Shown: positions 8,723-31,886, counted from the stretch's first letter. The stretch is DNA of 64,000 bases from a virus (IMGVR_UViG_3300024346_007254:10883-74882), one strand, 5' to 3'. Program-made: numbers and translations. Notes: generated from the sequence alone by a model not told the origin.

Positions 8723-8727
8723 AGTGT

Positions 8728-13029: not shown

Positions 13030-13034
13030 GTTTA

Positions 13035-13064: not shown

Positions 13065-13069
13065 AAAGT

Positions 13070-15017: not shown

Positions 15018-15915
15018 AGTCGAAAATCGATGGCCGCATTATTACGATAGCTGTAAGATAGAATGGAATCTTGGGAAGCGTTGCAATCTTGATTGTACGT
15101 ATTGCCCGTCCGAAATCCATGACTATACTAGTCCTCACACAGATATTAATATTTTAAAGAAAACAATTGATGTTATTAGCACAATTCCAAATGCTAGGGT
15201 TAGTTTAACCGGCGGTGAGCCATGTGTACATCCTAAAATCTTAGAGTTGCTTTATTACCTTAGAAAAAAAGTCGGATGGATTAATTTAACAACTAATGCT
15301 ACTCGGAGTCATGAATTTTATTTAGAATTACCAGTTGACCATATTGTTTTTAGTTTGCACTTTGAACATCCAAAATGGGAAACTCGATTAAACAACATTA
15401 TTAAATTTGTTAGAGATAACAGAAATTCAACAGATGCGCCAAACATAAAATACCACATAAACATTATGGCGCATCACGATTACATGAGTCGTGCTAGGAA
15501 TGCAGTCGAAACCCTTAGTTTCTTTAAAGCAAATTATACAGTGCGCAGAATACGCTGGACTGAAAAGCATGACTGGTTTGATGATTTAAAATACAAGCCA
15601 GAAGATTTACAATGGCTAATTGATACAGAAACTACCGCTGATTTTAATACATTAATCGATAGCAGAACTTTAACTCATACAAACGATTTACTTAAAGAAA
15701 ACAAAAATAAGTTCGAAGGGTGGTCTTGTCGTGCAGGTATAGAAAGCCTAATGATAAATTGGGACGGCGATGTTCATCGTGCTACTTGCAGAGTAGGCGG
15801 CAGTTTAGGGAATATATACAACGGAACATTTGACATTCCAACAGAACCGATTACATGCACCAGAAAATGGTGTACATGTGCAGCAGATGTGAATATTACA
15901 AAATGGAAAAAGTAA
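15010..15915 (+). CDS. radical SAM protein with C-terminal Cys-rich domain
   Basis: RCNLDCTYC, TGGEP, and WSCRAG...ATC...CTRKWCTC. Confidence 0.92.
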   Translation: MYKVENRWPHYYDSCKIEWNLGKRCNLDCTYCPSEIHDYTSPHTDINILKKTIDVISTIPNARVSLTGGEPCVHPKILELLYYLRKKVGWINLTTNATRSHEFYLELPVDHIVFSLHFEHPKWETRLNNIIKFVRDNRNSTDAPNIKYHINIMAHHDYMSRARNAVETLSFFKANYTVRRIRWTEKHDWFDDLKYKPEDLQWLIDTETTADFNTLIDSRTLTHTNDLLKENKNKFEGWSCRAGIESLMINWDGDVHRATCRVGGSLGNIYNGTFDIPTEPITCTRKWCTCAADVNITKWKK

Positions 15916-18012: not shown

Positions 18013-18638
18013 TCGCCTAAAATAATATCCCCGGTATGTGCATCAATGTATATATGTGTTCCTAAACTATCAGCAACATAATGTATCCATGCGTCATCAG
18101 GATGCTGCTTAATTGGGTTTAAAAGATATTCCTTTTCTGTTATTGTATATTCCTTGCCAATCGGCTTTGTAAAAATTAAGAAGTCGTGCCTGCCTTCTTG
18201 AAAAAAGTCAACTAGTTCAGTGCAAGTTTCAAACGCTTCTACATCTACAAGTATATTAACATTAACTAAAACATTCATTTCATACAAATATTCAGCCACG
18301 TTGCGAGCTTTAACTTTTTTGATTGTTTTGTAATTTACAATTAAATTAACACGGTCGAGTACTCTTCCTGCCTTTGTCCACCAGATAATACCATTTGAAC
18401 CATCTGAATCTATTTCAAGAATACATTTATACGTGTTTTTTAAATAGTCGCACAACAACAAAAAGTTATCACATGTTTCCGGTGCTGCAATGTTAAACTT
18501 AATAGTAACAAGCTCATCTTTTTTAAGTAGACAAGAGATATCTTCTTTTACAGTTTCTAATTCTAATTTCTTAGTTGTGCCAATGTCAAATTCTATTTTT
18601 TTAATAATTTTTAAATCTTTTTTGTGTAAATTCATCAT
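17991..18638 (-). CDS. degenerate radical-SAM-barrel-like protein lacking CxxxCxxC
   Basis: LEIDSDGSNGIIWW, VNVNILVD and HIYIDAHTG echo the neighbouring rSAMs (TNGS...W, VNVMM, HIDQHT), but there is no cluster-binding motif. Confidence 0.45.
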   Translation of the reverse strand: MMNLHKKDLKIIKKIEFDIGTTKKLELETVKEDISCLLKKDELVTIKFNIAAPETCDNFLLLCDYLKNTYKCILEIDSDGSNGIIWWTKAGRVLDRVNLIVNYKTIKKVKARNVAEYLYEMNVLVNVNILVDVEAFETCTELVDFFQEGRHDFLIFTKPIGKEYTITEKEYLLNPIKQHPDDAWIHYVADSLGTHIYIDAHTGDIILGECLNIPN

Positions 18639-20026
18639 AATAAGTGTGCCAATTCCGGAAATACTTTTTTAGCACTAACACCGCGTATTGCGTCCAGCTT
18701 AGTTACATATTCTTTAAAGTCAGGAAGTAGATATGAATTGTCTTGTGCATTCATATGATTTAGCACTCCTTCCCAACGTGCCCAGCCATACGGATTATTA
18801 TCCCAAAATCCTTCTGATTCGTGATGTGCTTTTAGATATCCTTTAAAACTCATAAAGTTTTCTTCTACTTCTTTTTTATCATCCTTAGGTAACATTTGTA
18901 TACTTAAAAAGGTCGGAATATATAACAGGTGCATGTTAAATAGTCCGCCGCCATGTAGAACAAAGGACGTCATTTCAGTATTAACTTTTTTAAAGTTTTG
19001 AGACATTTTCCAATACGCAAAATCAGGTAAGTGTTTAACATTAAAGATTTGTATTGCGGTTGCAATCGACGGAGATATATTATACGGAGAGTTGTCTAAC
19101 ATATGCATAGTCTCTTCAATTGTATTCCAGTCACTTGGATGTCGAATGTATGCATTTCGTTGTCCGGTTGCATCAATACTTACACCAACTTTTACTTGCT
19201 GAAAGTAATTCCATAACTCCATTAAATCTTTGTCAATAAGTAATCCGTTTGTATTATAGCGTAGAATAATGTTTTTGGCATATCCTGATTTTACAATTTG
19301 TTCAATAAATTCTTTATGCTGCTTAATCATTAACGGCTCGCCACCGGCAAAATATACTTCTTTTAAATAGGGAATCTGTCTGTACATTTGATCCCAAAAC
19401 TCTGGGTTTTCATGCCATTTGTTATTAAATGTCATCTTGTCCCATTGTAATTGATCCTTAACTGTTTCACTTTCTAGTTGAGGAAATAGTTCTTGCCAAT
19501 CTTTGACCCATTTACTACTATCATGCGGACTGCACATAACGCACTTGATGTTACAAGTGTGTCCGAGACGTAAGTCAAGGTATTGTAGTTTATCCGGAAC
19601 CCTGCCCTCTGGTGTTGTATTAGATAGTAACTCGGTTAGATCTAAGTCACGCCTTGCTATCCATGCAGAAGTTTCCCACAAGCGTTTGCTTGCAACTCCT
19701 TTTGCTTCTTCTTCAAAGCATTTCGTACAACTAGCAGGAATGTTTCCTTCCATCATTGTTGTACGCACAGATCTCATGTAATCACTGTTCCATGCTTCAA
19801 GTGGTGTCATTTTTGCAAAATTAGAAGGATTACCGTTAACGTCTTTTACTAATCCTATAGTATGATCAGTGCCTGCGCCGCTGGCATTTGCAGAACAACA
19901 AAGGCGCATATCCCCATTTGGTCTAGTTGCTAAATGTATCCACGGAAGAGCGCACATTGTTTTTGTACCGGATTCTTCAATCACGTGCTGCCAATGTTCC
20001 ATTATTCTTTGGCTGGAATTTGACAT
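18635..20026 (-). CDS. radical SAM protein with N-terminal twitch-like domain
   Basis: MCALPWIH...RLCC...CTKC followed by CNIKCVMC, FAGGEP and YNTNG. Confidence 0.92.
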   Translation of the reverse strand: MSNSSQRIMEHWQHVIEESGTKTMCALPWIHLATRPNGDMRLCCSANASGAGTDHTIGLVKDVNGNPSNFAKMTPLEAWNSDYMRSVRTTMMEGNIPASCTKCFEEEAKGVASKRLWETSAWIARRDLDLTELLSNTTPEGRVPDKLQYLDLRLGHTCNIKCVMCSPHDSSKWVKDWQELFPQLESETVKDQLQWDKMTFNNKWHENPEFWDQMYRQIPYLKEVYFAGGEPLMIKQHKEFIEQIVKSGYAKNIILRYNTNGLLIDKDLMELWNYFQQVKVGVSIDATGQRNAYIRHPSDWNTIEETMHMLDNSPYNISPSIATAIQIFNVKHLPDFAYWKMSQNFKKVNTEMTSFVLHGGGLFNMHLLYIPTFLSIQMLPKDDKKEVEENFMSFKGYLKAHHESEGFWDNNPYGWARWEGVLNHMNAQDNSYLLPDFKEYVTKLDAIRGVSAKKVFPELAHLL

Positions 20027-20632
20027 CTACTTTCTTCCAATCACTAAAAATCTATTATATAACGGCAACTCTAAAGTTTCCTTACAATATATACTATTTA
20101 ATCCGCAAAAATCAGCAAACTTATCTGCATCAACTTCACAGCGTACATGCTCCGGAAGGGAAGTATAATTATTGCTCTGCAAAATAACTAAACTGCTATC
20201 AGGTACACGAGATAACCATAAGTCGTAATGATCACGTGTTAAATGTTCAGTACTTGTGTTAATTACATATTCGGGTTCTGTTTCATAATTCCATGCTGCC
20301 ATGTCAGAGGTATGTGCATGAAAGCGGCTTTCCATTTCAAACCTCTTGTTAATCATATTAGCAACTTCTTCGCAGCCTGGATCAATATCAATACTATCTA
20401 TGTGATTAATTGGAATTTGGCTGTTAAACATCAAGCTTGCAAGCACTCCGTTCCATCCGCCGTGTATAACAGCGTTAGCAGGTTCAGAGTGTGCATATTT
20501 TTGCAAATGTTCAATTAGCCAAACTTTGCTATAAACTTGACCACGCCAAAAGCTTTCCAATGTGCCAAAGTAGTTTTCACTTTGTCTAATTGCATCCATC
20601 CAAAAAATAACATCTTCTATTTCTACTTTCAT
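20027..20632 (-). CDS. class I SAM-dependent methyltransferase-like protein
   Basis: VIHGGWNG, SIDID, INTSTEH and LQSNNY; paralog of 1261-2226. Confidence 0.7.
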   Translation of the reverse strand: MKVEIEDVIFWMDAIRQSENYFGTLESFWRGQVYSKVWLIEHLQKYAHSEPANAVIHGGWNGVLASLMFNSQIPINHIDSIDIDPGCEEVANMINKRFEMESRFHAHTSDMAAWNYETEPEYVINTSTEHLTRDHYDLWLSRVPDSSLVILQSNNYTSLPEHVRCEVDADKFADFCGLNSIYCKETLELPLYNRFLVIGRK

Positions 20633-21546
20633 GGGTTTAATAAAATCTTTTTCCAGTGTTCTATAGTTTTAGCAATACCTTCTTCGTATGAGACTTTAGG
20701 TGCCCATCCAGTTTTTTCTGTAATCAAATTATGATTGCTGTTAAGCCACCATATTTCTCCATGGCGTGGATCTTTGGTATCCCAATTAATAGTGCCCTTC
20801 CAGTCTAGCTGCTCGGCAATATAATTTGCACAATCTCTAATTTTGCGAGGATCGTCTGGACCAATTGTAAAGATGTTTCCTTTACAAGTATCTCTGTTTT
20901 CAATAACAGCCATCCATGCATCTAACAAATCGTCAATATAGATAAAGTTACGATATGGTTCGGCATATCCAAGATTACATTCATCACTTGTTAGCATTTG
21001 TGCTATGATGTGCTCAGTTATAAAAAAATCGTTATCCTTGCGCCCATAAGCATTTGTTTGTCTAAAGCTAGCCCACTCTAGTCCGTATGCACGTTCGGCG
21101 TACTCGAGATACTTTTCACAGCCATACTTAGCAACTGCATACGGCGCGTTAGGATGAGGTTGCGTATGCTCGTCAAATGCAACACGGGTTGTGTATGTAC
21201 CTGTATTTTCAACTTCGTCGCTAATTGGTTGCCAACCGTAAACTTCCATTGTGCTAGCAAATACAAAGTATGGCATTGGATCAACTTGTCGACATGCTTC
21301 AATTAAGTTAACTGTTCCTACATAGTTCACCTCACTAAAACTAACCTGCTCGTAAAAGCTTTTTTGTACTTCTGTTCGTGCTGCTAGGTGCACCACAATA
21401 TCCGGAGCAACTGCTTTCACTTCGTCTTGTACTGCAAGGTGATCTGTTAAGTCACTTTTGAGATCAACAACTTCTCCTAGTTGTAGCAAGCGAGGCAGCA
21501 AATGCTGTCCAATAAATCCGCTTGCGCCTGTAAGTAATATTTTCAT
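20629..21546 (-). CDS. NAD-dependent NDP-sugar epimerase/dehydratase (extended SDR)
   Basis: TGASGFIG, HLAA, ASTMEVYG, YAVAK and RNFIYIDD. Confidence 0.9.
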   Translation of the reverse strand: MKILLTGASGFIGQHLLPRLLQLGEVVDLKSDLTDHLAVQDEVKAVAPDIVVHLAARTEVQKSFYEQVSFSEVNYVGTVNLIEACRQVDPMPYFVFASTMEVYGWQPISDEVENTGTYTTRVAFDEHTQPHPNAPYAVAKYGCEKYLEYAERAYGLEWASFRQTNAYGRKDNDFFITEHIIAQMLTSDECNLGYAEPYRNFIYIDDLLDAWMAVIENRDTCKGNIFTIGPDDPRKIRDCANYIAEQLDWKGTINWDTKDPRHGEIWWLNSNHNLITEKTGWAPKVSYEEGIAKTIEHWKKILLNP

Positions 21547-22604
21547 TTTTGTACCTTTTTTAAAAAATTATAATTATCGGGAATTCTTTTTATATCAAAT
21601 GTTTGATGATAGTGTTCACGCTGATCAATATCAGGAATACCTTGGATTGCATCAAGAATGGAATCAGAGGCGTGCTCGTTTGTTTGAACAATGTTTAACA
21701 GGTTATTAAAATTGTAAAGAACTTTCTTTTGTAATTTATTTTGTAATTCTGTTATATCGTATTGACAAAGTTTGGCAACTTCTTTCATAAACATTTCACA
21801 ACGCTTTTCGTCATCAAGCTCTTTATCAAATGAATAATCTATTACTTCGTCAAACAGTTTAAATCCCATTTTCTTTAAATATCGATGAGTATAAGGAGCA
21901 CCAGATATTAAAAACGGACGTTGATGATAAATTGGAACATAAGTTTTTTCTGTAATAAACAATGCACGTGGATGCGACTCGCTAATAATGCTAAACAAAC
22001 TATCTTTAAATTCTTCAGGAGGAATAAAGATATTTAGAAATGAATGGAATTTTTTAGCTTCGATCCATTTTTGATCGAATTCCATTCTTTCAGGCGTCCA
22101 CCATTTAAAGTCATATTGATAACTCCACTCCTCGGTATTATGCCAACTTATAAATCCATGTTGAAATAAATTTTCTTTGTACATGTAATCAATAAACATG
22201 CACCTCCACGGATGTGCCCTGCCGTTTAAACTAGTAAAATGTTTAGTAATTTCTTTATTATGTCCGAACGGTCTGACTTGATTTTCAAAAGAATGACGAA
22301 GAACAAAGTTAGCAAAAAAGGTGGGCCAGCTTCCAGTTACTTCCGGAACGCTATTTAGAAAATAGTTTGGACTTAACTTACTGTCTAATACTGCGCCTGT
22401 GATAATTTCTAATTTAACATTATGAAAATCTAAGAATCGTTTGAAAAGCGTAAATGATGTAGGATCGGTATAGAGGGTGGCAGCTTCCCATTCCTCTGGA
22501 GAAAAAACTATCAACTTTTCAGGTTTATTATCCGATTCAATGAGATCAACTAGATCTTTAAGTTCGGATGCGCCCCAAGGGAAAAAATATTCTACGCTGC
22601 TCAT
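21543..22604 (-). CDS. putative glycosyltransferase (GT-B-like, TEK motif)
   Basis: ISES...FITEKTYVPI...RPFL...GFKLFD..ID.SFD, reminiscent of the GT10-like donor-binding segment; paralog of 25810-27168. Confidence 0.5.
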   Translation of the reverse strand: MSSVEYFFPWGASELKDLVDLIESDNKPEKLIVFSPEEWEAATLYTDPTSFTLFKRFLDFHNVKLEIITGAVLDSKLSPNYFLNSVPEVTGSWPTFFANFVLRHSFENQVRPFGHNKEITKHFTSLNGRAHPWRCMFIDYMYKENLFQHGFISWHNTEEWSYQYDFKWWTPERMEFDQKWIEAKKFHSFLNIFIPPEEFKDSLFSIISESHPRALFITEKTYVPIYHQRPFLISGAPYTHRYLKKMGFKLFDEVIDYSFDKELDDEKRCEMFMKEVAKLCQYDITELQNKLQKKVLYNFNNLLNIVQTNEHASDSILDAIQGIPDIDQREHYHQTFDIKRIPDNYNFLKKVQK

Positions 22605-22612
22605 TGTATACC

Positions 22613-22620
22613 TATAAATA
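22613..22620 (+). promoter_or_regulatory. T4-late-like promoter TATAAATA
   Basis: Exact TATAAATA, 4 nt before ATG 22625. Confidence 0.7.
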
Positions 22621-22624
22621 TGTT

Positions 22625-23215
22625 ATGTTCGAAATAGTAACAGAATTTGAAAATAAAATTGCTGAGTTCTTTGGTGCGCCGTATGCAGTGTCAACTGATT
22701 GCTGTACGCATGCCATAGAACTGTCTTTATTATACACTAATCCTCGACGTTTGTCTATACCTTATTACAATTACTTATCTATACCTATGACAGCTAAAAA
22801 ATTAAATTTGAACTGGACATGGCACGATAAGCATTGGGAAGAATATTACAAATTAGAATTTACAAATATCTACGATGCTGCTGTGCTTTGGAAACAGAAC
22901 AGTTACATCAAAGGATCGTTTATGTGTTTAAGTTTTCAATACCGAAAGCACCTTAGTCTAGGACGAGGAGGCATGATACTAACTGATGACCGTACTGCAT
23001 ACACAGACTTGATTAAGTTAGGATATGATGGTAGGACACGAGATAAGCCCTGGGCAGAACAAGAAGTTGATTCACTTGGTTATCACTATTATATGACACC
23101 CGAAATTGCACAAACTGGGTTAGATAAATTGCCCAGTGCAATTGCTTCTACTCCAAAAAAGTGGAGTTGGAAAGACTATCCAGATTTAAGAAATATGCCA
23201 TTATTCGCCAAATGA
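22625..23215 (+). CDS. DegT/DnrJ/EryC1/StrS-type PLP aminotransferase, shortened
   Basis: FENKIAEFFGAPYAVSTDCCTHAIEL, YDAA, SFQYRKHL..GRGGMILTDD and GYHYYMT; under 200 aa. Confidence 0.85.
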   Translation: MFEIVTEFENKIAEFFGAPYAVSTDCCTHAIELSLLYTNPRRLSIPYYNYLSIPMTAKKLNLNWTWHDKHWEEYYKLEFTNIYDAAVLWKQNSYIKGSFMCLSFQYRKHLSLGRGGMILTDDRTAYTDLIKLGYDGRTRDKPWAEQEVDSLGYHYYMTPEIAQTGLDKLPSAIASTPKKWSWKDYPDLRNMPLFAK

Positions 23216-23974
23216 TCTAACATTAACAGTTTCAAACACCGTTGGATATTCTTGACTTAAAAGAACATTAATTGCAGGAATCAATTTGTCAAAGTTTTTA
23301 TTTTTTTGAGCAATAGCTTTTATGTCATTGTGTATTTTTGTGAATGTTTCTTTAGTTGAATCTTTTATTAGCCTACCTACATCACTGTAAATTGTCTCTG
23401 CTATCTCCAAATGTTTTAGCACGTCGGGATGAAAATCGCCCTCTACAGTACCAAAAGCCGGAGTTTTATGATCTTCGATTTTTAAGAATTTCATCGTAGG
23501 AAATGCAGTCGAATATAACTGAAACATTTTTTGATTTGGAGTTTTAACAACACGGTCTTCGTCTACAAAGAGTCTAAATCCTGTTGCTTGCCATGATACA
23601 TTGTAAAGCCTATTAGCACAGATTATTGCTGTAGAATTTTTAACAGCATCGTTATCAGAATCCCAATACTTTTTTATAAATCTCTTATCATAGCCAGCAC
23701 TTCCGGGGTTTAGAACAGATCCGTTTGGAAGCCAATTGCCATCTTTTATTCTATCTTCCCTGCTCCAACTGGACCAAAGTATATAAATTTGATCGTCATC
23801 TTTAAATTTGTGAATTAGATCTGCCTCAAGAAGGCGGTGGAAAATTCCTACGTTTCCTAAACCAGCAAGCGCATAATTACAATACTCAATTCCTTGATCG
23901 TATGCAATTATGTCTGCCCAGGTCGGCCAGCAGTACTGTGTAAAACTGCATCCAAAAGTAAAAATTCTACTCAT
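23201..23974 (-). CDS. SGNH-like protein (GCS variant)
   Basis: IFTFGCSFT, NYALAGLGN, WSSWSRED and C-terminal DFHP. Confidence 0.6.
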   Translation of the reverse strand: MSRIFTFGCSFTQYCWPTWADIIAYDQGIEYCNYALAGLGNVGIFHRLLEADLIHKFKDDDQIYILWSSWSREDRIKDGNWLPNGSVLNPGSAGYDKRFIKKYWDSDNDAVKNSTAIICANRLYNVSWQATGFRLFVDEDRVVKTPNQKMFQLYSTAFPTMKFLKIEDHKTPAFGTVEGDFHPDVLKHLEIAETIYSDVGRLIKDSTKETFTKIHNDIKAIAQKNKNFDKLIPAINVLLSQEYPTVFETVNVRSFGE

Positions 23975-23983
23975 ATCATTCCT

Positions 23984-24006
23984 TAAATATAGTATGAGTA
24001 TTTATA
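23984..24006. promoter_or_regulatory. opposed putative late promoter boxes
   Basis: Plus strand: TAAATA (23984-23989)-4 nt-ATG 23994. Minus strand: TATAAATA (23999-24006) upstream of an AAGGA SD and ATG 23974. Confidence 0.6.
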
Positions 24007-25001
24007 GCACCAATGAGTGGGATCCACTAAAGAAGGTTGTAGTAGGCGTAGCCGATTATGCACGTATTCCAGAAATGGACAAAAGTTTACGTTGTATCAA
24101 TTATGCAGACAGAGACAATGTAAACGATGTAGTTGCTGGGTTGTATCCCCAACAGGTTGTAGACGAAAGTAATGAAGATCTAGAAACATTTGTTAAGTTT
24201 TTAGAAGGAGAAAGTGTTGAAGTTGTAAGACCTAAGCGCACTCCGGATGTAAAATATTATAACTATTGTCCTAGAGATACTGTGTTTGTACACGGTACTA
24301 AAGCACTTGCTGCACCAATGGCACTCGAATCAAGAGCCGAAGAGTGGAAATATTTACTGCCAGGTGCAGCACCAATTGAAATCGGTGCAAGGACTAGTAG
24401 AGAAGGGTTATATGACGAGTCATGTGTAGGCAATCCTGATAAACTTGCACTCACTGAGACTTCGCCTTGTTTCGACGCTGCTAATGCTATCAAAGCTAAT
24501 GATGACGTATTGTACTTGGTCAGCAATAGTGGCAATAAAGCTGGCGCTACATATTTACAAGATTGGATTAACAAGCCTAGAAACAATTTTGTCGATCCTG
24601 GAAATATTAAAGTTCATACACTCGAAAATGTTTATAGCTACATGCATATCGATAGCACTATTGCGTTTTTAAGAGAGGGGCTGTTGCTTGCTAATCCAAG
24701 TCGTATTAAAGACAAAGACATGCTGCCTGCCCCATTTAATAATTGGGATATAATTTGGGCACCCGAACCAGTTGATGCAGGACATTATCCCGGACTGTGT
24801 AATAGTAGCATTTGGACATGGAACGTAAACTTGTTCAGCGTCAACCCAAACCTAGTCGTGTTAGAGGAACATCAGGTGCCTACGCGCGACGCACTGGAGG
24901 CATACGGTATCGAGTGCGCTATGTTGCCACTAAGACACGCACGCACGTTAGGTGGGTGTTTTCACTGTTGCACGCTAGACCTTGTGCGTAAAGTTTCCTG
25001 A
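23994..25001 (+). CDS. amidinotransferase (glycine / inosamine-phosphate amidinotransferase family)
   Basis: NEWDPLKKVVVG, YCPRD, FDAAN, HIDST and GGCFHCCTLD, which include the catalytic Asp-His-Cys set. Confidence 0.9.
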   Translation: MSIYSTNEWDPLKKVVVGVADYARIPEMDKSLRCINYADRDNVNDVVAGLYPQQVVDESNEDLETFVKFLEGESVEVVRPKRTPDVKYYNYCPRDTVFVHGTKALAAPMALESRAEEWKYLLPGAAPIEIGARTSREGLYDESCVGNPDKLALTETSPCFDAANAIKANDDVLYLVSNSGNKAGATYLQDWINKPRNNFVDPGNIKVHTLENVYSYMHIDSTIAFLREGLLLANPSRIKDKDMLPAPFNNWDIIWAPEPVDAGHYPGLCNSSIWTWNVNLFSVNPNLVVLEEHQVPTRDALEAYGIECAMLPLRHARTLGGCFHCCTLDLVRKVS

Positions 25002-25763
25002 GTCGATAATTTTAATAAGCCGTTCGGCAGTATCAGAATGAAAGCCAGGGCCGTCGTGGTCAAAATCACGTGCTCGATCTTTAATGTCCGGACTAACAAA
25101 CCAAAGCTTGCGAGAACTAATGATGACCTCTTGTTCAATGTCGTCGTCCCAGGTCCAGTTAAATACCGGAACGCCTAGCGATTCCCAAATGTTATTGAAA
25201 TTTTCAAACCAGATAAAGTTGTTAAAACTCATTTCAGCAGTATCGACTATATATCGTTTACCCCACCATCTTCCGTCATGCGTTGGAGTTTCGGACATAT
25301 CATTAAATTCTAAAAACTTTTGTTCAGTAGAAGCAAACATTTTTCTTGATTTTTGAGGCCACTGTACTATAACTAACTTTGGCAAGGGTAACTTATTAGT
25401 TTTCCATAAGGTAGTATTGTAGTATTGTATATCCATTCCAGTAGCACCTTTGGCGCAATTATATAAATCAAGATTTAGATGAGTTTTTAGAGTGTGGTTC
25501 CAAATTTGATCTTCGCAAAGTCCTATGCCTTCGGTATAACTGCATCCAAAAGTTAAAAGAAAATCGTCATTAAGATCCTCGATGTTTTTTGTTCTATGCC
25601 CATATTTGTTAAATTTGTATTCAATCTCATATTCAAATTGTTTTTGAAATTCGAGAGGTTGTTTTAAAAACTTTTTCTCAGAATCAGCACTATACCATTT
25701 TAAGGTTTGGTTTGCACGATCCGTGTCGCACAGTAAAGGTTTATCGCGATACCATTGTAGCAT
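24975..25763 (-). CDS. SGNH-like protein (GCS variant)
   Basis: YKFNKYGHR, LTFGCSYTEGIG and ARDFDHDG. Start placed at ATG 25763 with an AGGA SD, which removes the overlap with the plus-strand gene. Confidence 0.6.
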   Translation of the reverse strand: MLQWYRDKPLLCDTDRANQTLKWYSADSEKKFLKQPLEFQKQFEYEIEYKFNKYGHRTKNIEDLNDDFLLTFGCSYTEGIGLCEDQIWNHTLKTHLNLDLYNCAKGATGMDIQYYNTTLWKTNKLPLPKLVIVQWPQKSRKMFASTEQKFLEFNDMSETPTHDGRWWGKRYIVDTAEMSFNNFIWFENFNNIWESLGVPVFNWTWDDDIEQEVIISSRKLWFVSPDIKDRARDFDHDGPGFHSDTAERLIKIIDSGNFTHKV

Positions 25764-25775
25764 TTTAGTTCCTAA

Positions 25776-25792
25776 TAAATATATTGTATTTA
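25776..25792. promoter_or_regulatory. opposed TAAATA boxes in a divergent intergenic region
   Basis: Plus-strand TAAATA at 25776-25781 and minus-strand TAAATA at 25787-25792. Confidence 0.5.
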
Positions 25793-25809
25793 CATTGGAG
25801 TTGATAGAT

Positions 25810-27168
25810 TTGTTTTCAGAATGGTTTGGCGGAATATTTTTTCGTGCTAGGGGAAAACTATCCCCTAAGTTAGTTTTACAGGATGGCACTCTAATCGTAA
25901 ATCCTGATGTACAAAAGTACGATGTCTTAAGAGAATTGCTTGAGGAATCGCAGTTAAAGTTCGAAGACCGCCCGATGATATTGTATAACGGTACGCATAA
26001 CATTCATCACCTAGACAAGTTGTTTGTTACAGATCATTATCGCAAAGTATTACAAAATAATCAAGTTGCTGTGTACTTTTTTGAACCATTAACACACTAC
26101 GATCCTAGTGACGGGTCGCATCCGCACATTATAAAAATTGATAATGCAGATAACGAGATCGAGCAGGTAAGATGTCACGAACTTGATAGTTTACAGGAAT
26201 GGGCAACTGCCAACGAGATTAACGATATATGTGTTTATTGTACTGATTACAAATCATGGGAATATTATCAACCCTTGTACCCAAAACTAAAGCTATTTTC
26301 ATTTGATCTGTTTGTTTCTTGGTATGTTGATCGTGCTACATTATTTGAAAAAAGACATCCATCTGGGCCATTGCCACAAAAACTATATGCTGATAAAATT
26401 ATAAAAAAATTCTGGTCAGGTGCTTGGCGATACGAACCTTATAGAAACTTTATATCAGCATACTTAGCCGGGCGTGGAATTGCACAGGAAAGCCACGTGA
26501 GTTTTTATTTTAAGGTTCCAAATCGTGAATTGAGAGATAGGCTTTGGTTTGACTGGGAAACGTTTCATAAAAAGCATCCTATGGTTGCAAATACTGTTAT
26601 GCAAGGAAATCAGATATTGCAAGAAATTGTTCCATTGTCAATTGAAGTTGAAAACCCAAAAGCTCTAGACGAAAGTAGAAACGATCCTGAAATTTGCACC
26701 AATGGAGAATTTAATATAAGAGGAGATCAAAATCCGGTTAAGTCATATAAAGAATCGTTTTGTGTTATTATACAAGAATCAAGGTTTAGTCAGCCATGGC
26801 CAAATATTAGTGAAAAAACTCTCAATGCAATAATCAATCAACGACCTTTTATTATGTGCGGGCCGCCGGGCACGTTGCATATGCTAAGAGAAATGGGGTT
26901 TCAAACATTTGACGGTTACTGGCCAGAAGATTATGATGAGATTGTATCAAATCAAGATCGATTAGCAAGAATATGCGAAGTTATTGATTACGTTAATTCT
27001 TTTAGTATTGATGATTTAAAACAAGTATACGGTAATATGCAGTCTATTTTGTTTCATAATAACGAAAAGATTAAAGACGTAAATAATTTTTATTTTAATC
27101 TAAATGACAACCTTAAGAGAAATTTTCAAGATATAAAAGATCAGCCCAATAATCGTGGGCTGCTTTAG
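25810..27168 (+). CDS. putative glycosyltransferase (GT-B-like, SEK motif)
   Basis: IIQES...NISEKTLNAI...RPFI...GFQTFD...EDYD; paralog of 21543-22604. The start is uncertain: TTG 25810 follows GGAG, and 25795 or ATG 25975 are also possible. Confidence 0.5.
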   Translation: MFSEWFGGIFFRARGKLSPKLVLQDGTLIVNPDVQKYDVLRELLEESQLKFEDRPMILYNGTHNIHHLDKLFVTDHYRKVLQNNQVAVYFFEPLTHYDPSDGSHPHIIKIDNADNEIEQVRCHELDSLQEWATANEINDICVYCTDYKSWEYYQPLYPKLKLFSFDLFVSWYVDRATLFEKRHPSGPLPQKLYADKIIKKFWSGAWRYEPYRNFISAYLAGRGIAQESHVSFYFKVPNRELRDRLWFDWETFHKKHPMVANTVMQGNQILQEIVPLSIEVENPKALDESRNDPEICTNGEFNIRGDQNPVKSYKESFCVIIQESRFSQPWPNISEKTLNAIINQRPFIMCGPPGTLHMLREMGFQTFDGYWPEDYDEIVSNQDRLARICEVIDYVNSFSIDDLKQVYGNMQSILFHNNEKIKDVNNFYFNLNDNLKRNFQDIKDQPNNRGLL

Positions 27169-27880
27169 TATGGTGCCAATATTCTTGTCCGTCGACACTA
27201 AACCCCTGATCCAAGCAATGTTCAAAGAATGATAACTTACTATTGTTGTATCCAATAAATCTTTCTTTAATAATCTTATTCTGATAATATTCATAACGAG
27301 CACCGGTTGCACACGATTGAAATGCATTTTTAAAAATAAAAGGAAATCTGTTTGCTTCAAGTATTGTTTGCAAATTAATGATATTTAAATATCGATTAAC
27401 TTCCCAATGCTCATTACTAATAAACATCGACTTCGATAATGTTTTAGCATTCCTTCTTAAATTGCTTGGAAAAACAGGAGCATAATGGTCCGGATGTATG
27501 TGTCCAACATTTCTGTCCGCTACATAAGGAAGAAATTGCCAATAGTTGTCAGTTTTAGAATGATCAAAAAATATTTCAGATCTACTGCTTCCTGTCCAGT
27601 GTATTAAGTATAAAGTACGCTTGGCCATTGCGGCATGATCTAACATCCACATTGACGTAGTACGATTTATATAATCATTACTTGCACCCGGGAGTGCAAG
27701 GTTAGTGTATACAACACCTAGTTTTCTAGCTAACTGTGCTCCAAAGCAATTGTCGCGATTATAGTTGCCTTCGCCAATGCCCGAGCCTTCAATTTCGCTG
27801 CCGGCGGTATGGCTACATCCATTAATTAAAATATGCTCAAAGTCATATTTTTTCTTTCGGAATGATAATATCTGTGCCAC
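27113..27880 (-). CDS. SGNH-like protein (GCS variant)
   Basis: ILINGCSHTAG, NLALPGASN, WTGSSR and C-terminal WHHT..AH. Confidence 0.6.
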   Translation of the reverse strand: MAQILSFRKKKYDFEHILINGCSHTAGSEIEGSGIGEGNYNRDNCFGAQLARKLGVVYTNLALPGASNDYINRTTSMWMLDHAAMAKRTLYLIHWTGSSRSEIFFDHSKTDNYWQFLPYVADRNVGHIHPDHYAPVFPSNLRRNAKTLSKSMFISNEHWEVNRYLNIINLQTILEANRFPFIFKNAFQSCATGARYEYYQNKIIKERFIGYNNSKLSFFEHCLDQGFSVDGQEYWHHTKAAHDYWADLLYLENFS

Positions 27881-28808
27881 AGTGACAATGCTCCTTACTA
27901 CAAATTACAGGCTTAAGATTAAGTTTTAGATCTTTGTCTAAAATGTTTCCGTGTCTATTTCCAACTCCGCAACTAGCACTGCTTATTTGTCCAATTGGGT
28001 TGATGAACAAAGCGTCATCAACTGAACACTTCCATCCTTTAAAAAAATTCTGTCTTGCTGCTATTATTTCATTACTATTTACCGGACGAGTTGTACCGTT
28101 ATTATAATGTGCAATACTGATTGCTTTATTAGTTCTATGCGGCTTGGGTATACGCATTACTGTTTCAAATTGTGCTTCTGCAAGAAACTTTTCTTTAGCA
28201 GGATCTTTGTATTTCCATGGACCTGCATTAACGCTCATTTCATCAAACAAAGGTGTCCATTCTAAATTGTAGTTTGGTACTTCTTGTCTTACACGTTCGC
28301 CAAAATCAACTACCTCCCAAAAACGCTCTTCGTGCATTAACATTTTTGTGCATAGATAATCTACCTTATCGCATAAAAATTGTGCATTTTCAATGTATCT
28401 ATCTTTTTTACAAAACTCAACGTGAAAGCTTGCTACAATATCATCAAACAAATGATAGTGCTGTTCCCAATATTTTAGTGGTCTTGACAAATTGGTATTA
28501 ATTGCTACTGTTAACTTGTCGCCCATTTGTTCTTTTAAATATTCAGTGAGTGGAATAAAGTTTTCCCAATATGCAGGTTCGCCGCCACTAAGAAAAATCT
28601 TAAAATATCGATACCCCCTGTCCTCGTATTGACGGAATATATCCATTACATTTTTCTTGTATAAATCTAGGTTGCCGTTGTTTTTGCTGTCGCCTGCCCA
28701 ATTGCCTGGATTGCAATAACTGCATTGAAAATTGCAGAAGTTATTCACTTGCCATGTTATGCTAAGGTACGGTTCGGCCATTGGAGTTATTTTAGTTAGT
28801 TTATTCAT
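27843..28808 (-). CDS. radical SAM protein with C-terminal Cys-rich domain
   Basis: FCNFQCSYC, SGGEP, NTNLS, and WKC...ASC...CSKEHCHC. Confidence 0.92.
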   Translation of the reverse strand: MNKLTKITPMAEPYLSITWQVNNFCNFQCSYCNPGNWAGDSKNNGNLDLYKKNVMDIFRQYEDRGYRYFKIFLSGGEPAYWENFIPLTEYLKEQMGDKLTVAINTNLSRPLKYWEQHYHLFDDIVASFHVEFCKKDRYIENAQFLCDKVDYLCTKMLMHEERFWEVVDFGERVRQEVPNYNLEWTPLFDEMSVNAGPWKYKDPAKEKFLAEAQFETVMRIPKPHRTNKAISIAHYNNGTTRPVNSNEIIAARQNFFKGWKCSVDDALFINPIGQISSASCGVGNRHGNILDKDLKLNLKPVICSKEHCHCGTDIIIPKEKI

Positions 28809-29391
28809 TTATTAATTTAAACAATCTTTTTGCAAATATATCATGGGTTCTTTTATTAGGGTGTCCATCTTTTAACGCTTTGTAATAACCAAATTTTTTA
28901 AAAACAATATCTATATTTACATTGTTCCAGCTTGGTGGATTTTTAATTATTAATTTATTATATGTATGCAAACTATTAATTGTTTGGCTAACTCTATTTT
29001 TTAAAAAGTAATTAGCTAAGTTAGCATTCATAAAAAAATCTAAACAATCATCGTAGTCGTTTTGATACTTAGCAAAAAACCTCTGCCATACTTCTTCTTC
29101 TTGCCAGGAAGCTAGTTGTTCCCAATAGCGTCCATTCCAGACTCCTCTACGAGAAGGAATGGACCAATTTATTACAACAATGTCTGTTTTTCTAAACTCT
29201 GTTTCAAGTACTGTTGCTGTTATTTGCTTAGAAGATGCTCCGGTATCGGACCTATTAAGTTCTTCTCTTCCAAGCATATTTGATAACGTAGTAGAGAATC
29301 CAAGCTTGCTAGGAGGATCATTGACTGTTAAGCAGTCATCTAATTCTAATCCATATACGTGACTGCATCCAAATGTAACTAATCTAGGCAT
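28801..29391 (-). CDS. SGNH-like protein (GCS variant)
   Basis: LVTFGCSHVYG, GASS, WSIPSR and DGHP. Confidence 0.6.
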   Translation of the reverse strand: MPRLVTFGCSHVYGLELDDCLTVNDPPSKLGFSTTLSNMLGREELNRSDTGASSKQITATVLETEFRKTDIVVINWSIPSRRGVWNGRYWEQLASWQEEEVWQRFFAKYQNDYDDCLDFFMNANLANYFLKNRVSQTINSLHTYNKLIIKNPPSWNNVNIDIVFKKFGYYKALKDGHPNKRTHDIFAKRLFKLINE

Positions 29392-30667
29392 ATTTGCGTA
29401 ACCAAGTCATTTCCGGATAAACGGACCAAAAGTCCTCTTTACGATGAATGTCCAATCTATGATTATTATCAAAAAACTGCTTGAGTTTGGCCTCATCTAA
29501 TTTGCCAGTATTCATAAATTGTATAACGCTATCAATTTTTCCAATTACATCCTTAATTACTTCCGGACGTGCTTCTGCACGTTCTTTAATCTTGTCAAAT
29601 GCCCATGCTTTATAATCGATATATTTTGATCTTAATTCTATTTTAATATCTTCCGGTATGTTATCAATTCGCATAAAATCAGGATCGGTAAGGATATTCA
29701 GTCTACAATTTTCAATATCTACTAACCCACGTTCTACCCAATCCATATGAAAATCTGGCCAATTCCATGCATTGTATAAACTAATAGTCGGCGTTAATTC
29801 AAAGTGTACATGAGGCACTTTCTCAAGCATTTCAATTCTGTTACGTTCAATTTGATTCCAGTCGGTGCCATTCCTGCTGTATTCAGCTCTTGTTCCATTG
29901 GAATCAAGACTACCGCTAACTTGGATATCTTCAAATTCTTTCCAGTATTCGATTATTGACTTTTGTTTGTATTTAAAGTTACTAAAATTAGTAGTGTAAC
30001 GTAACCGCACATCTTTTTTACCAGTTTCAATCCAATAATCAAGTATTTTGTAATGCTCGTCTGTAATAAGTGCTTCGCCGCCTGCCCAATACACTTCTTC
30101 GACATCGGGCAAATATTTTTGCAGATCTTCCCAAAAGTTGTTTTCTTTTGCAATATTAACTACAATCTTGCCATCGTTTTTTAACATACGAGCAAGTTCG
30201 TGTTCGCCGTACAAGTCTTTAAATTCTTTAGCATGTTGACTGCTAAGTTCTGGACCACAAGTATGACATTTCATGTTGCAAATATTTGAGAAGCGTATGT
30301 CTAAGTATGCCATGCGCAAATTATCAATACTTCCGTCGGCATTTGTATTTTCAACTAGATCAAAGTGTTTGTCACCAAACCATTGATTATGATTCTTGCG
30401 CAACGTCCAAGTATTTGATCGATTTTCTAGTTCGTAGCAACGTTTGCATACATCACGCTTTTCTCCGTTAAGCATTGCTAGTCGAAGATCCTTGTATTCG
30501 TCACTATTCCATACTTCAGCAATGCTTTTATTTTTTACATTGCCAAACGGCTTATCCGAATCAGCAATACAACAAGGCATTGCATTGCCGTTTGGCCAAA
30601 CGTGCATGTGAACCCACGGTAAAATGCAGAATGCTTTATTCTGTGTTAATAACTCTTTTTTATCCAT
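29384..30667 (-). CDS. radical SAM protein with N-terminal twitch-like domain
   Basis: FCILPWVH...MPCC...CKRC followed by CNMKCHTC and WAGGEA. Confidence 0.92.
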   Translation of the reverse strand: MDKKELLTQNKAFCILPWVHMHVWPNGNAMPCCIADSDKPFGNVKNKSIAEVWNSDEYKDLRLAMLNGEKRDVCKRCYELENRSNTWTLRKNHNQWFGDKHFDLVENTNADGSIDNLRMAYLDIRFSNICNMKCHTCGPELSSQHAKEFKDLYGEHELARMLKNDGKIVVNIAKENNFWEDLQKYLPDVEEVYWAGGEALITDEHYKILDYWIETGKKDVRLRYTTNFSNFKYKQKSIIEYWKEFEDIQVSGSLDSNGTRAEYSRNGTDWNQIERNRIEMLEKVPHVHFELTPTISLYNAWNWPDFHMDWVERGLVDIENCRLNILTDPDFMRIDNIPEDIKIELRSKYIDYKAWAFDKIKERAEARPEVIKDVIGKIDSVIQFMNTGKLDEAKLKQFFDNNHRLDIHRKEDFWSVYPEMTWLRKYA

Positions 30668-31886
30668 TTAACATTACAGCCAATTCAGGAAATACTTTAG
30701 CGAAATCTTCGTTGCGTATTTTATCTCTTCGGTGCGTATGATGCAAAAATTGCTCTTTTTGGTCATGCCATTGATCTTGCTGGGTAGTAAAAGTTATTGC
30801 ATCGCGTACATGCATAGCTTGATACCAATCGTGCTCAATCATATAACTGTGAAGGTCGATTAACTTTTCCGTACCTATAACTTTTAAATGTGTTGGTAGT
30901 ATTGTTGAAGCATAGTATTCCGGAGTCAACGCTCTATAGATACTTATCATGTCCTTTTTTCGTAGTAAGTCTTTATCCATCATGTACTGGAAAAAGTCCG
31001 AAAGTGTAACATAATTAAAAACACTCAAAACTGTGTTATATTGGTAGTCAATGTAATCCAGGTCGCGTATGCTTTTTAGATTGCTTTCAACAACACCCCA
31101 ATCAGTGCCGTGCCTTATGTATTCGGCGCGTTCGCCGTAATGATCAATGCTTGCACTAATTTCAACACGCTTAAATCTGCTCCACAAATCAAGTATGTTG
31201 TGCTTCTTGTATTTGAGGTTGCTCATATTAGTATTGTAGCGCAATGTAATTTCACTGTTTCTACCAGTGCGAATCATTTCTTCTAATATGATATAATGCT
31301 CTTCTGTAATAAGAGGTTCTCCGCCAGCAAAATATGCAAGTTCCATGTGCGGGACTTGCGACTTTATTTCGTCTAATAATTTGCCTGTATTATCTGCATG
31401 ATTAATAACACGATATCCGGTTTCAACGTTATCATGTTGCTTCATTTCTTGTGCCCATTGACTGCTAAATTCAGAGCCACAAGTACGACACTTCATATTG
31501 CAAATATTACTAAATCTTACATCGAAATATTTCATACGGAATTCTGGTAAAGATCCGTCTGTGCTTGTTGGGGTTACAAGTTCATCAAAGTCCTTGCCAA
31601 AATGCTCTAGGCTATATTTTCTAAAACTGAAAGGTGAGCTTTCTTCATGCTTGTAGCAATATGTGCATATGCTGCTTTCTTTGCCAGCAAGCATATCAAG
31701 TCGCAATTGCTTCATTTTGTCATTGTTAAAAATGTCTTTTAAGCTTGCATCCTTAACGTTAGCAAACGGCTCAGTATAATCACTGCTACAACACGGATAC
31801 ACGTTTCCTAGAGGAGTCACATTTAAGTGCATCCACGGAAACATGCAAAAAGTTTTACTATCAGTTAGTAATTGTTTTTTATCCAT
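30660..31886 (-). CDS. radical SAM protein with N-terminal twitch-like domain
   Basis: FCMFPWMH...YPCC...CTYC followed by CNMKCRTC and FAGGEP. Tandem paralog of 29384-30667 (both start MDKK.LLT). Confidence 0.92.
   Translation of the reverse strand: MDKKQLLTDSKTFCMFPWMHLNVTPLGNVYPCCSSDYTEPFANVKDASLKDIFNNDKMKQLRLDMLAGKESSICTYCYKHEESSPFSFRKYSLEHFGKDFDELVTPTSTDGSLPEFRMKYFDVRFSNICNMKCRTCGSEFSSQWAQEMKQHDNVETGYRVINHADNTGKLLDEIKSQVPHMELAYFAGGEPLITEEHYIILEEMIRTGRNSEITLRYNTNMSNLKYKKHNILDLWSRFKRVEISASIDHYGERAEYIRHGTDWGVVESNLKSIRDLDYIDYQYNTVLSVFNYVTLSDFFQYMMDKDLLRKKDMISIYRALTPEYYASTILPTHLKVIGTEKLIDLHSYMIEHDWYQAMHVRDAITFTTQQDQWHDQKEQFLHHTHRRDKIRNEDFAKVFPELAVMLNG

What the first reader, a model, noticed from the sequence alone, without database searches (positions are those of the whole stretch)
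20027..27168. Amino- and guanidino-sugar module: dehydratase, DegT aminotransferase, amidinotransferase, GT pair, methyltransferase and SGNH proteins
Seen: these genes lie within 7 kb, and the amidinotransferase keeps its Asp/His/Cys motifs. Known: in streptomycin biosynthesis, DegT-family aminotransferases (StsC/StsA) and the amidinotransferase StrB1 convert keto groups to amino and then guanidino groups on a cyclitol. Inference: an NDP-keto-sugar is converted to an amino-sugar and then a guanidino-sugar, which the TEK/SEK GTs transfer. That would be a cationic decoration unusual for a phage.
Basis: partly seen in the sequence, partly recalled or inferred. Interest (0 to 1): 0.8.

Follow-up and report, generated by a model that had tools for sequence, protein, structure and literature searches.

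The report
Phage guanidino-sugar tailoring gene cluster
An uncultured marine giant phage carries an intact relative of the streptomycin enzyme StrB1 among sugar-modifying genes, a set that recurs in many phages and probably turns a sugar amine into a positively charged guanidino group, although nobody has detected that product.

Summary
ORF 23994-25001 is a full-length StrB1-type amidinotransferase (E 2.6e-54 to PDB 1BWD) with an invariant Asp/His/Cys triad. ORF 22625-23215 is a genuine half-size DegT aminotransferase: 196 aa, PLP Lys and Asp kept, pLDDT 95, Z 17-20 to sugar aminotransferases. The two "TEK/SEK" proteins fold as GT-B, and GT10 fucosyltransferases are the best match. The SDR is an NDP-sugar enzyme, but "dehydratase" is not shown. 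"Methyltransferase" and "SGNH" rest on motifs.

Context supports a sugar pathway.
- The mini-DegT lies within 6 kb in 18 of 31 dereplicated phage amidinotransferase groups, often overlapping the amidinotransferase start.
- Among mini-DegT loci, the SDR is the commonest partner (51 of 80).
- The amidinotransferase never co-occurs with a hexapeptide-repeat (candidate N-acyl) transferase (24/14/0/35).

Most likely the amidinotransferase is an optional cap on an NDP-amino-sugar amine, and GT10-like enzymes then transfer the sugar. The product, the nucleotide and the target are unknown.

The phage is a jumbo myovirus, not a T4-like cyanophage. The one cultured carrier, S-SCSM2R, has these genes annotated as "antibiotic synthesis genes". 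This scan has flagged the same module many times on other DNA, and earlier follow-ups reached the same reading.

The parts
20027..20632 (-). 201-aa phage-only protein with a possible class I SAM-methyltransferase-like fold. A paralogous domain lies in 1261-2241.
   Evidence: No Pfam, PHROG or NCBIfam hit and no PDB profile hit. Invariant GGW-G and DID motifs. The nearest named Atlas clusters are Methyltransf_31/PCMT/NAS at 0.88-0.96. It occurs in 9 of 31 amidinotransferase groups.
20629..21546 (-). Extended SDR, an NDP-sugar epimerase/dehydratase-family enzyme. It is the likely source of the keto-sugar.
   Evidence: PF01370 at 2.7e-40 and phrog_540 at 2.6e-58. Invariant GxxGxxG, S98-T99-M100-E101 and Y136xxxK140. 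Best PDB hits are UDP-hexose 4-epimerases at 2.5e-29, with RmlB at 1e-19. All NCBIfam hits are below cut-off. It directly follows the mini-DegT in 32 of 53 loci without an amidinotransferase.
21543..22604 (-). GT10-like GT-B glycosyltransferase, paralogue a ('TEK').
   Evidence: It aligns with 25975-27168 and shares the invariant R, E, EK, P, G, D, R and N. This family occurs in 23 of 31 amidinotransferase groups.
22625..23215 (+). Mini-DegT: a half-size, 196-aa PLP sugar aminotransferase.
   Evidence: PF01041 at 55.3 bits in two pieces. 29 distinct homologues are all 195-233 aa. D84 and K108 are invariant, and K108 aligns with the Lys/Ala site of 9bgp/9bgr. AF2 pLDDT is 95.3. Foldseek top hit is GDP-perosamine synthase at E 1e-9. 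VIA gives Z 17.4-19.7, rmsd 2.1-2.7 A, over 185-194 residues. TATAAATA-N4-ATG lies at 22613-22627.
23201..23974 (-). SGNH-like protein a (GCS...G.GN...DxH), possibly an esterase or acyltransferase.
   Evidence: G8 C9 S10, G38, G40 N41 and D180 H182 are invariant in 18 homologues. hhalign gives 88% probability to family b. Atlas neighbours are phage-only, and some carry DUF6071. No curated SGNH model hit.
23994..25001 (+). StrB1-type L-arginine amidinotransferase.
   Evidence: 1BWD at E 2.6e-54 full length; HsvA 1e-32, AGAT 3.5e-27, SxtG 8e-25. The triad D161/H218/C325, plus D95, R114 and D220, is invariant. 65 viral loci. 2730 database proteins at E <= 1e-10. TAAATA-N4-ATG lies at 23984-23996.
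24975..25763 (-). SGNH-like protein b. The longest ORF runs to 26003; the ATG at 25763 is the likely start.
   Evidence: G73 C74 S75, N102 and D233..H236 are invariant. hhalign gives 87-88% probability to families a and c.
25975..27168 (+). GT10-like GT-B glycosyltransferase, paralogue b ('SEK').
   Evidence: AF2 pLDDT 84.8. VIA wide search: H. pylori alpha-1,3-FucT 5ZOI at Z 10.2, T4 beta-glucosyltransferase 10.0, FUT11 9.2, FUT9 9.0. Foldseek gives only weak matches, all GT-B. It lies directly downstream of the amidinotransferase on the same strand in many loci.
27113..27880 (-). SGNH-like protein c (DUF6071), just outside the stated range but part of the conserved block.
   Evidence: PF19547 at 3.3e-13. 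G21 C22 S23 H24, G65 and S67 N68 D69 are invariant. It sits at +3.0 kb in all close relatives.

Best explanation
The stretch is the amine-tailoring part of a soluble nucleotide-sugar and glycosyltransferase island in a marine jumbo phage.

Inferred route:
1. A host-made NDP-hexose is oxidised or dehydrated to an NDP-keto-sugar by the SDR (20629-21546).
2. The half-size PLP enzyme (22625-23215) transaminates it to an NDP-amino-sugar.
3. The StrB1-type amidinotransferase (23994-25001) moves the amidino group of L-arginine, through its Cys325 thiouronium intermediate, onto that amine. This gives a guanidino-sugar and ornithine.
4. The GT10-like GT-B enzymes transfer the sugar to an unknown acceptor. 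The SGNH-like and methyltransferase-like proteins tailor it further.

The amidinotransferase is one of several interchangeable amine caps on a common SDR + mini-DegT core; the others look like N-acyl and N-methyl caps.

Shown: enzyme families, intact catalytic residues and conserved linkage. Inferred: every substrate, the order of steps, the nucleotide carrier (GDP is suggested only by the GT10 likeness) and the target.
For: - The amidinotransferase is full length and has all the residues that align with StrB1's catalytic set.
- The mini-DegT keeps its PLP Lys and Asp across 22 divergent sequences and folds confidently as a sugar aminotransferase core.
- In 31 dereplicated amidinotransferase groups, the nearest neighbours are GT10-like (23), mini-DegT (18), a small cupin/2OG-like protein (17), a UDP-Glc/GDP-Man dehydrogenase-family protein (12) and the SDR (11).
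- The mini-DegT stop overlaps the amidinotransferase start by 1-11 nt in at least 7 distinct loci. These loci fall in both deep amidinotransferase clades.
- From the mini-DegT side there are at least 599 viral loci. Of the best 80, 51 have the SDR and 28 the amidinotransferase. In loci without the amidinotransferase, the SDR follows the mini-DegT directly in 32 of 53.
- Those same loci also hold GT10, GT11 and GT25 hits, TylF-like and class I methyltransferases, and a hexapeptide-repeat protein whose Pfam hit is just under cut-off.
- The amidinotransferase and the hexapeptide transferase never co-occur: 24/14/0/35, Fisher p 0.003.
- None of the 46 island ORFs tested has more than one hydrophobic segment, so the island has no lipid-carrier machinery of its own.
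Against: - No product, substrate or activity is known for any member.
- 13 of 31 amidinotransferase groups lack a mini-DegT within 6 kb, most of them in clade B. There the fixed partners are an NDP-sugar dehydrogenase and a small cupin.
- The nearest characterised enzyme acts on a cyclitol phosphate, not on a sugar nucleotide.
- The mini-DegT lacks about half of the canonical enzyme, and such a form has not been shown to be active.
- The SDR's best solved relatives are 4-epimerases, and it has Met where RmlB has the catalytic Asp.
- The exclusivity test is not corrected for relatedness.
- Bacterial homologues of the amidinotransferase (at most 41% identity) sit in unrelated contexts. One lies next to a carbamoyltransferase and a class III aminotransferase.
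Confidence: 0.5

Rival explanations
1. The amidinotransferase works on a non-sugar acceptor: a free amino acid, a polyamine or an aminocyclitol. It would make a small guanidino metabolite. This could be an antibiotic-like compound, as proposed for S-SCSM2R, or a guanidino acid that is later joined to a sugar.
For: - All characterised relatives act on small free amines: StrB1, HsvA, AGAT and SxtG.
- Clade B loci have no recognisable aminotransferase nearby.
- The enzyme set has an aminoglycoside flavour. Related loci hold B12-radical SAM and carbamoyltransferase genes, and 27843-28808 gives a below-cut-off twitch-type radical SAM hit.
- The S-SCSM2R paper calls ORF305, 306 and 309 antibiotic synthesis genes (PMC12801897).
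Against: - No cyclitol synthase, NRPS/PKS, exporter or resistance gene was recognised in the window.
- The constant neighbours are nucleotide-sugar enzymes and glycosyltransferases.
- The mini-DegT is translationally coupled to the amidinotransferase.
- It is mutually exclusive with the hexapeptide-repeat (candidate N-acyl) transferase of the same cassettes.
Confidence: 0.2
2. Amidination happens after transfer. The GT10-like enzymes attach an amino-sugar to a macromolecule, either a virion protein or a host envelope glycan. The amidinotransferase then converts the exposed amine, or protein lysines, on the polymer.
For: - StrB1 has an open active site that tolerates bulky acceptors (established knowledge of 1BWD, not tested here).
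- The phage enzyme aligns with StrB1 from end to end with only short gaps.
- A distant second pentein of S-SCSM2R (ORF266, 22% identity) was reported in the virion proteome.
- The island abuts tail and baseplate genes.
Against: - The gene order (mini-DegT, then the amidinotransferase, then the GT) and the coupling fit tailoring at the nucleotide-sugar level, as in other amino-sugar pathways.
- No amidinotransferase that acts on a polymer is known.
- ORF266 belongs to a different family.
Confidence: 0.12
3. The island hypermodifies phage DNA. The sugar, with or without the guanidino group, is attached to a modified base to block host nucleases.
For: - T4 beta-glucosyltransferase ties with GT10 as the best structural match of the GT-like protein (Z 10.0 against 10.2).
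- All enzymes are soluble.
- Cationic DNA modifications are known in other phages (general knowledge).
Against: - No base hydroxymethylase, DNA kinase or DpdA-type gene was recognised in the window.
- The R...E...(T/S)EK motifs match GT10 donor-binding motifs, not those of the T4 enzyme (the motif comparison is from knowledge).
- Related cassettes carry bona fide GT10, GT11 and GT25 hits, which are typical of glycan synthesis.
Confidence: 0.08

Closest known systems
StsC / StrB1 steps of streptidine biosynthesis (Streptomyces griseus; StrB1 = PDB 1BWD)
   Same: A DegT-family aminotransferase makes an amine, and a Cys-His-Asp amidinotransferase then converts it to a guanidine using L-arginine. 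StrB1 is the best solved relative (E 2.6e-54, full length).
   Different: There the acceptor is scyllo-inosamine 4-phosphate, a cyclitol, in an actinomycete antibiotic cluster. Here the partners are NDP-sugar enzymes and glycosyltransferases in phages, the aminotransferase is half-size, and no cyclitol synthase or kinase was recognised. Phage enzymes separate from 80 bacterial homologues on one branch of the tree (SH-aLRT 86).
NDP-amino-deoxysugar cassettes: Gmd/Per/PerB for GDP-N-acetylperosamine; RmlB/FdtA/FdtB/FdtC for dTDP-Fuc3NAc
   Same: They share the logic SDR dehydratase, optional cupin isomerase, DegT aminotransferase, then an enzyme that caps the amine. Caulobacter GDP-perosamine synthase is the top Foldseek match of the mini-DegT. 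Related phage cassettes carry hexapeptide-repeat and methyltransferase genes in place of the amidinotransferase.
   Different: The cap would be an amidino group, which is not known on any sugar nucleotide. The aminotransferase lacks about half the canonical protein. The SDR has T-M-E instead of T-D-E.
GT10 alpha-1,3-fucosyltransferases (H. pylori FutA 5ZOI, FUT9, FUT11)
   Same: GT-B fold with Z 9.0-10.2, and invariant Arg and Glu-Lys in an E...(T/S)EK context.
   Different: No Pfam GT10 hit for the window proteins. T4 beta-glucosyltransferase scores the same. The donor and acceptor are unknown.
Synechococcus phage S-SCSM2R ORF305-309 (PQ898602; PMC12801897)
   Same: This is the only cultured phage found with both genes: amidinotransferase 62% identical, mini-DegT 53%. 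They sit with a radical SAM gene, a small 2OG-like gene and five glycosyltransferases.
   Different: It is a T4-like cyanomyovirus, whereas the window is a jumbo myovirus. The authors read the genes as antibiotic synthesis genes, and no function was tested.
Hypervariable tail-fibre-adjacent islands of marine myophages (pelagimyophages and cyanomyophages, PMC7029224)
   Same: A large variable block beside the tail genes, holding glycosyltransferases, LPS-type sugar genes, UDP-glucose dehydrogenase and radical SAM cassettes.
   Different: That paper does not describe the amidinotransferase and mini-DegT pair. It proposes host O-chain modification, which is untested here as well.

Membership tests
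Amidinotransferase (pentein fold, StrB1/AGAT type) | Catalytic Cys-His-Asp triad plus the conserved Asp/Arg substrate-binding residues | tested here: met
   D95, R114, D161, H218, D220 and C325 align with the StrB1 residues and are invariant in 25 phage sequences.
Amidinotransferase (pentein fold, StrB1/AGAT type) | Full-length homology to a characterised member | tested here: met
   1BWD at E 2.6e-54, query 6-332 against chain 7-339. No curated Pfam or NCBIfam model hits.
Amidinotransferase (pentein fold, StrB1/AGAT type) | L-arginine as donor, ornithine released, amine acceptor | not testable with these tools
   Needs an enzyme assay.
DegT/DnrJ/EryC1/StrS sugar aminotransferases | Schiff-base Lys and the Asp that binds the PLP ring nitrogen | tested here: met
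   K108 and D84 are invariant. K108 aligns with the Lys of 9bgp, which is Ala in 9bgr.
DegT/DnrJ/EryC1/StrS sugar aminotransferases | Pfam PF01041 above the gathering score | tested here: met
   55.3 bits against a cut-off of 19.8, but in two pieces covering profile positions 32-72 and 163-235 of 360.
DegT/DnrJ/EryC1/StrS sugar aminotransferases | Canonical size of about 360-400 aa with a complete C-terminal domain | tested here: not met
   196 aa here, and 193-233 aa in every relative listed. 185-194 residues align within chain ranges of about 30-330. This is a shrunken subfamily.
Extended SDR NDP-sugar 4,6-dehydratases | GxxGxxG, a catalytic Thr/Ser and YxxxK | tested here: met
   G7-G10-G13, T99 and Y136/K140 are invariant. 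PF01370 at 2.7e-40.
Extended SDR NDP-sugar 4,6-dehydratases | The acid/base pair after the Thr (T-D-E in RmlB) and equivalog-level similarity | tested here: inconclusive
   The sequence is T99-M100-E101: the Glu is kept and the Asp is replaced. TIGR01181 scores 110.6 bits against a cut-off of 365. The best solved relatives are 4-epimerases.
GT10 fucosyltransferases | GT-B fold with conserved Arg and Glu-Lys donor-binding motifs | tested here: inconclusive
   5ZOI at Z 10.2, FUT11 9.2, FUT9 9.0, but T4 BGT at 10.0. R157, E268 and E280-K281 are invariant. No PF00852 hit and no PDB profile hit.
SGNH/GDSL hydrolases | Block I Ser, block II Gly, block III Asn and block V Asp/His | tested here: inconclusive
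   Invariant GCS, G, GN and DxH or DxxH in families a and b. Only DUF6071 hits, and only for c. No fold was computed.
Class I SAM-dependent methyltransferases | Rossmann-like fold with a Gly-rich motif I and an acidic motif II | tested here: inconclusive
   GGW-G and DID are invariant. The Atlas neighbours are only a lead. No Pfam or PDB hit.

The most novel reading that the evidence does not exclude
Large marine phages make a nucleotide-activated guanidino-deoxysugar, a sugar class not known in any glycan. They would do so with a minimal half-size PLP aminotransferase coupled to a StrB1-type amidinotransferase, and attach the sugar to a phage or host macromolecule as a permanently cationic decoration. 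The amidino group would be one of several swappable amine caps that diversify the glycan between related phages.
Probability: 0.4. Interest if true: 0.75.

Novelty: new variant of a known kind. Interest (0 to 1): 0.55.

Why it matters
If the reading holds, it adds a new reaction to nucleotide-sugar biochemistry: arginine-dependent amidination of a sugar amine. It also adds a new, permanently charged building block to natural glycans. The module is abundant in ocean and lake viromes, so it is not a curiosity of one contig.

It would also give the smallest known working sugar aminotransferase, which is useful for enzyme engineering.

A cationic glycan on virions or on the infected cell could affect adsorption, superinfection exclusion or nuclease resistance. 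This is testable because one carrier, S-SCSM2R, is in culture.

It would also correct the published reading of these genes as antibiotic synthesis genes.

Tried and rejected
- I first took the phage for a T4-like cyanomyovirus, from the PHROG baseplate hit and S-SCSM2R. I rejected that: the baseplate wedge protein is closest to jumbo myoviruses (SCTP-2, Atu_ph07, Phosso, GAP32, BF) at 33-36% identity.
- Profile searches against PDB sequences found nothing for the GT-like pair, the methyltransferase-like family or SGNH-like family c.
- Foldseek gave no match at E <= 0.001 for the GT model.
- The 80 bacterial loci with amidinotransferase homologues contain none of the other window genes. Two that I annotated (Pseudomonas, Marithrix) have unrelated neighbours.
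- Split-gene idea: I asked whether a separate small ORF (F6, 139 aa) supplies the missing DegT C-terminal part. It has no homologue in the window, and its PDB hits are spurious designed repeats. F6 and the small cupin f10 are not detectably related.
- Pfam on 20 further island ORFs (232-15915) found only radical SAM/SPASM and a weak QueC hit. There was no nucleotidyltransferase and no cyclitol synthase.
- Literature searches for guanidino-sugar terms found nothing.
So there is no evidence on transcription.

Full report
**What is there**

The finding spans eight genes on alternating strands. A ninth conserved member, 27113-27880, lies just beyond it.
- Pfam recognises only the SDR (20629-21546, PF01370, 2.7e-40) and, in two pieces, the DegT-like ORF (PF01041, 55.3 bits).
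- PHROGs adds an unnamed phage family for the putative amidinotransferase.
- NCBIfam has no model for the amidinotransferase. All SDR hits fall far below their cut-offs.

**The amidinotransferase is real and intact**

ORF 23994-25001 matches StrB1 (PDB 1BWD) at E 2.6e-54 over its whole length. HsvA (1e-32), glycine amidinotransferase (3.5e-27) and SxtG (8e-25) are weaker. The residues aligned with StrB1's catalytic and binding set (D95, R114, D161, H218, D220, C325) are invariant in 25 phage homologues that reach down to 36% identity.

The family holds 2730 proteins at E <= 1e-10 in the large protein collection, and 65 loci in IMG/VR. Bacterial homologues reach at most 41% identity. In a quick maximum-likelihood tree, 26 phage sequences separate from 80 bacterial ones on one branch (SH-aLRT 86). 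They form two deep clades, A (which includes the window) and B.

**The 'DegT' is a shrunken but probably functional aminotransferase**

It has 196 residues. The 29 distinct homologues in the amidinotransferase loci are 195-233 aa, and the best 120 of at least 8000 database hits are 193-210 aa. So it is a family, not a fragment.

D84 and K108 are invariant. K108 aligns with the lysine of 9bgp that is alanine in 9bgr. The AlphaFold model has pLDDT 95.3.
- Foldseek ranks GDP-perosamine synthase, ArnB and BtrR first, at E 1e-9 to 3e-8.
- VIA-align gives Z 17.4-19.7 at 2.1-2.7 A over 185-194 residues, within chain ranges of about 30-330 of 360-400-residue enzymes.

About half of the canonical protein is missing. 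Whether such a form works alone is unknown.

**The other proteins**

*GT-like paralogues.* They share an invariant Arg, a Glu and a (T/S)-Glu-Lys motif. The model (pLDDT 84.8) is GT-B. The best matches are H. pylori alpha-1,3-fucosyltransferase (Z 10.2), T4 beta-glucosyltransferase (10.0), FUT11 (9.2) and FUT9 (9.0). Foldseek gives only weak GT-B matches.

*SDR.* It has an invariant S-T-M-E and YxxxK. The Glu is typical of dehydratases and decarboxylases, which is knowledge rather than a test. But the best solved relatives are 4-epimerases, so 'dehydratase' is open.

*Methyltransferase-like protein.* It belongs to a phage-only family, and methyltransferase clusters are only its nearest named neighbours.

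*SGNH-like proteins.* The three are remote relatives of one another (hhalign 87-88%) with invariant SGNH-type block residues. No curated model or fold supports the label.

**Conserved linkage, seen from the amidinotransferase**

A tblastn matrix over 66 loci and ORF clustering into 31 dereplicated groups give these counts within 6 kb:
- GT10-like: 23 of 31
- mini-DegT: 18
- a small cupin/2OG-like protein: 17
- a UDP-Glc/GDP-Man dehydrogenase-family protein: 12
- the SDR: 11
- also carbamoyltransferase and B12-radical SAM genes

Close relatives (69-86% identity) repeat the window's order almost gene for gene. In more distant loci the operon reads dehydrogenase, cupin, mini-DegT, amidinotransferase. 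The mini-DegT stop overlaps the amidinotransferase start by 1-11 nt in L035, L039, L040, L047, L050, L051 and L053. These loci fall in both deep clades. Thirteen groups, mostly in clade B, have no mini-DegT nearby and no other recognisable aminotransferase.

**Conserved linkage, seen from the mini-DegT**

IMG/VR holds at least 599 mini-DegT loci, roughly ten times the number of amidinotransferase loci. Of the 80 most similar, 51 carry the SDR and 28 the amidinotransferase. In the loci without the amidinotransferase, the SDR follows the mini-DegT directly on the same strand in 32 of 53. The neighbours there include bona fide GT10 and GT11 hits, a weak GT25 hit, a class I and a TylF-like methyltransferase, and a hexapeptide-repeat protein whose hit falls just under Pfam's cut-off.

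In 73 dereplicated loci the amidinotransferase and the hexapeptide transferase never co-occur (24/14/0/35, Fisher p 0.003). This is not corrected for relatedness. The simplest reading is a common SDR plus mini-DegT amino-sugar core with interchangeable amine-capping enzymes, the amidinotransferase being one of them.

**Setting**

The window is part of a 74.9-kb IMG/VR fragment estimated at 21% complete. Its baseplate wedge protein is closest to jumbo myoviruses of 355-490 kb. Several related loci come from contigs of 306-365 kb. The stretch occurs in at least eight marine metagenome runs at half or more of its sampled words.

The island from about 1 to 36.8 kb abuts tail and baseplate genes. 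It is rich in radical SAM/SPASM genes and encodes no multi-pass membrane protein. It therefore has no lipid-carrier glycan machinery of its own. The target (virion protein, host envelope via host machinery, or DNA) cannot be told from sequence.

**Literature**

The only cultured phage with both genes is S-SCSM2R. Its authors list ORF305 (AHBA synthase family), ORF306 (radical SAM) and ORF309 (inosamine amidinotransferase) as antibiotic synthesis genes, without experiments (PMC12801897). Tail-adjacent hypervariable islands with glycosyltransferases, UDP-glucose dehydrogenase and radical SAM cassettes are described for marine myophages (PMC7029224). I found no paper on guanidino sugars made by an amidinotransferase.

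**Earlier notes of this scan**

The same module has been flagged many times on other DNA: 187 notes in at least 123 genomes match the key words. Earlier follow-ups reached the same reading. I looked these up after my own analysis. They are not independent evidence.

**Verdict**

The best reading, at about 0.5, is arginine-dependent amidination of an NDP-amino-sugar as an optional cap in a phage glycan pathway. This is a new variant of known amino-sugar cassettes, and it borrows the StsC/StrB1 logic.

Noticed in passing
window 13743-15017, 18635-20026, 29384-30667, 30660-31910 (and 31879-33261): Paralogous radical SAM proteins in which Pfam places the SPASM domain N-terminal to the radical SAM core, the reverse of the usual order. 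The fifth, 31879-33261, clusters with them, but I scanned it only with PHROGs. 2936-3907 has the usual order.
   Followed up: no
window 22613-22627, 23984-23996, 62383-62395 (-): TAAATA-N4-ATG sits exactly at the starts of the mini-DegT, the amidinotransferase and a 147-aa gene near the baseplate genes. The first reads TATAAATA, like a T4 late promoter. There are four matches in the window against 2.0 expected, and three are at gene starts. TAAATA itself is under-represented (72 against 110).
   Followed up: partly
window 58455-61889 and 44743-58455: The baseplate wedge protein is closest to jumbo myoviruses (SCTP-2, Phosso, Atu_ph07, GAP32, BF) at 33-36% identity. Next to it lies a 4570-aa ORF. 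The genome is probably about 350 kb, and the host is unknown.
   Followed up: partly
window 1261-2241: The C-terminal part of this 326-aa protein is a paralogue (37% identity) of the methyltransferase-like protein 20027-20632. In clade B-type loci this longer form lies 3 kb downstream of the amidinotransferase.
   Followed up: partly
L228:17354-18247 (S-SCSM2R ORF266): A second, distant pentein (22% identity to the window enzyme, with His and C-terminal Cys motifs kept) lies next to KdsA/KdsB and 2OG oxygenases. The authors reported it in the virion proteome.
   Followed up: partly
L070:7974-13099 (Pseudomonas sp. NFIX28): The bacterial amidinotransferase homologue (40% identity) sits with a NodU/CmcH-type carbamoyltransferase, a class III aminotransferase and a haem-oxygenase-like protein. 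This looks like a small-molecule cluster. A carbamoyltransferase also follows the amidinotransferase in some phage loci, for example L063.
   Followed up: no
LR756502.1 461770-462351; Flavobacterium phage immuto 56703-57332: Mini-DegT homologues occur without a detectable close amidinotransferase in a 642-kb uncultured megaphage (56% identity). They also occur, at 30% identity, in Flavobacterium phages beside mannosyltransferase and pilin-glycosylation genes.
   Followed up: no
window 12935-13765: A weak QueC-like PP-loop ATPase hit (18.7 bits, below cut-off) heads a run of radical SAM genes. No other deazaguanine gene was recognised.
   Followed up: no
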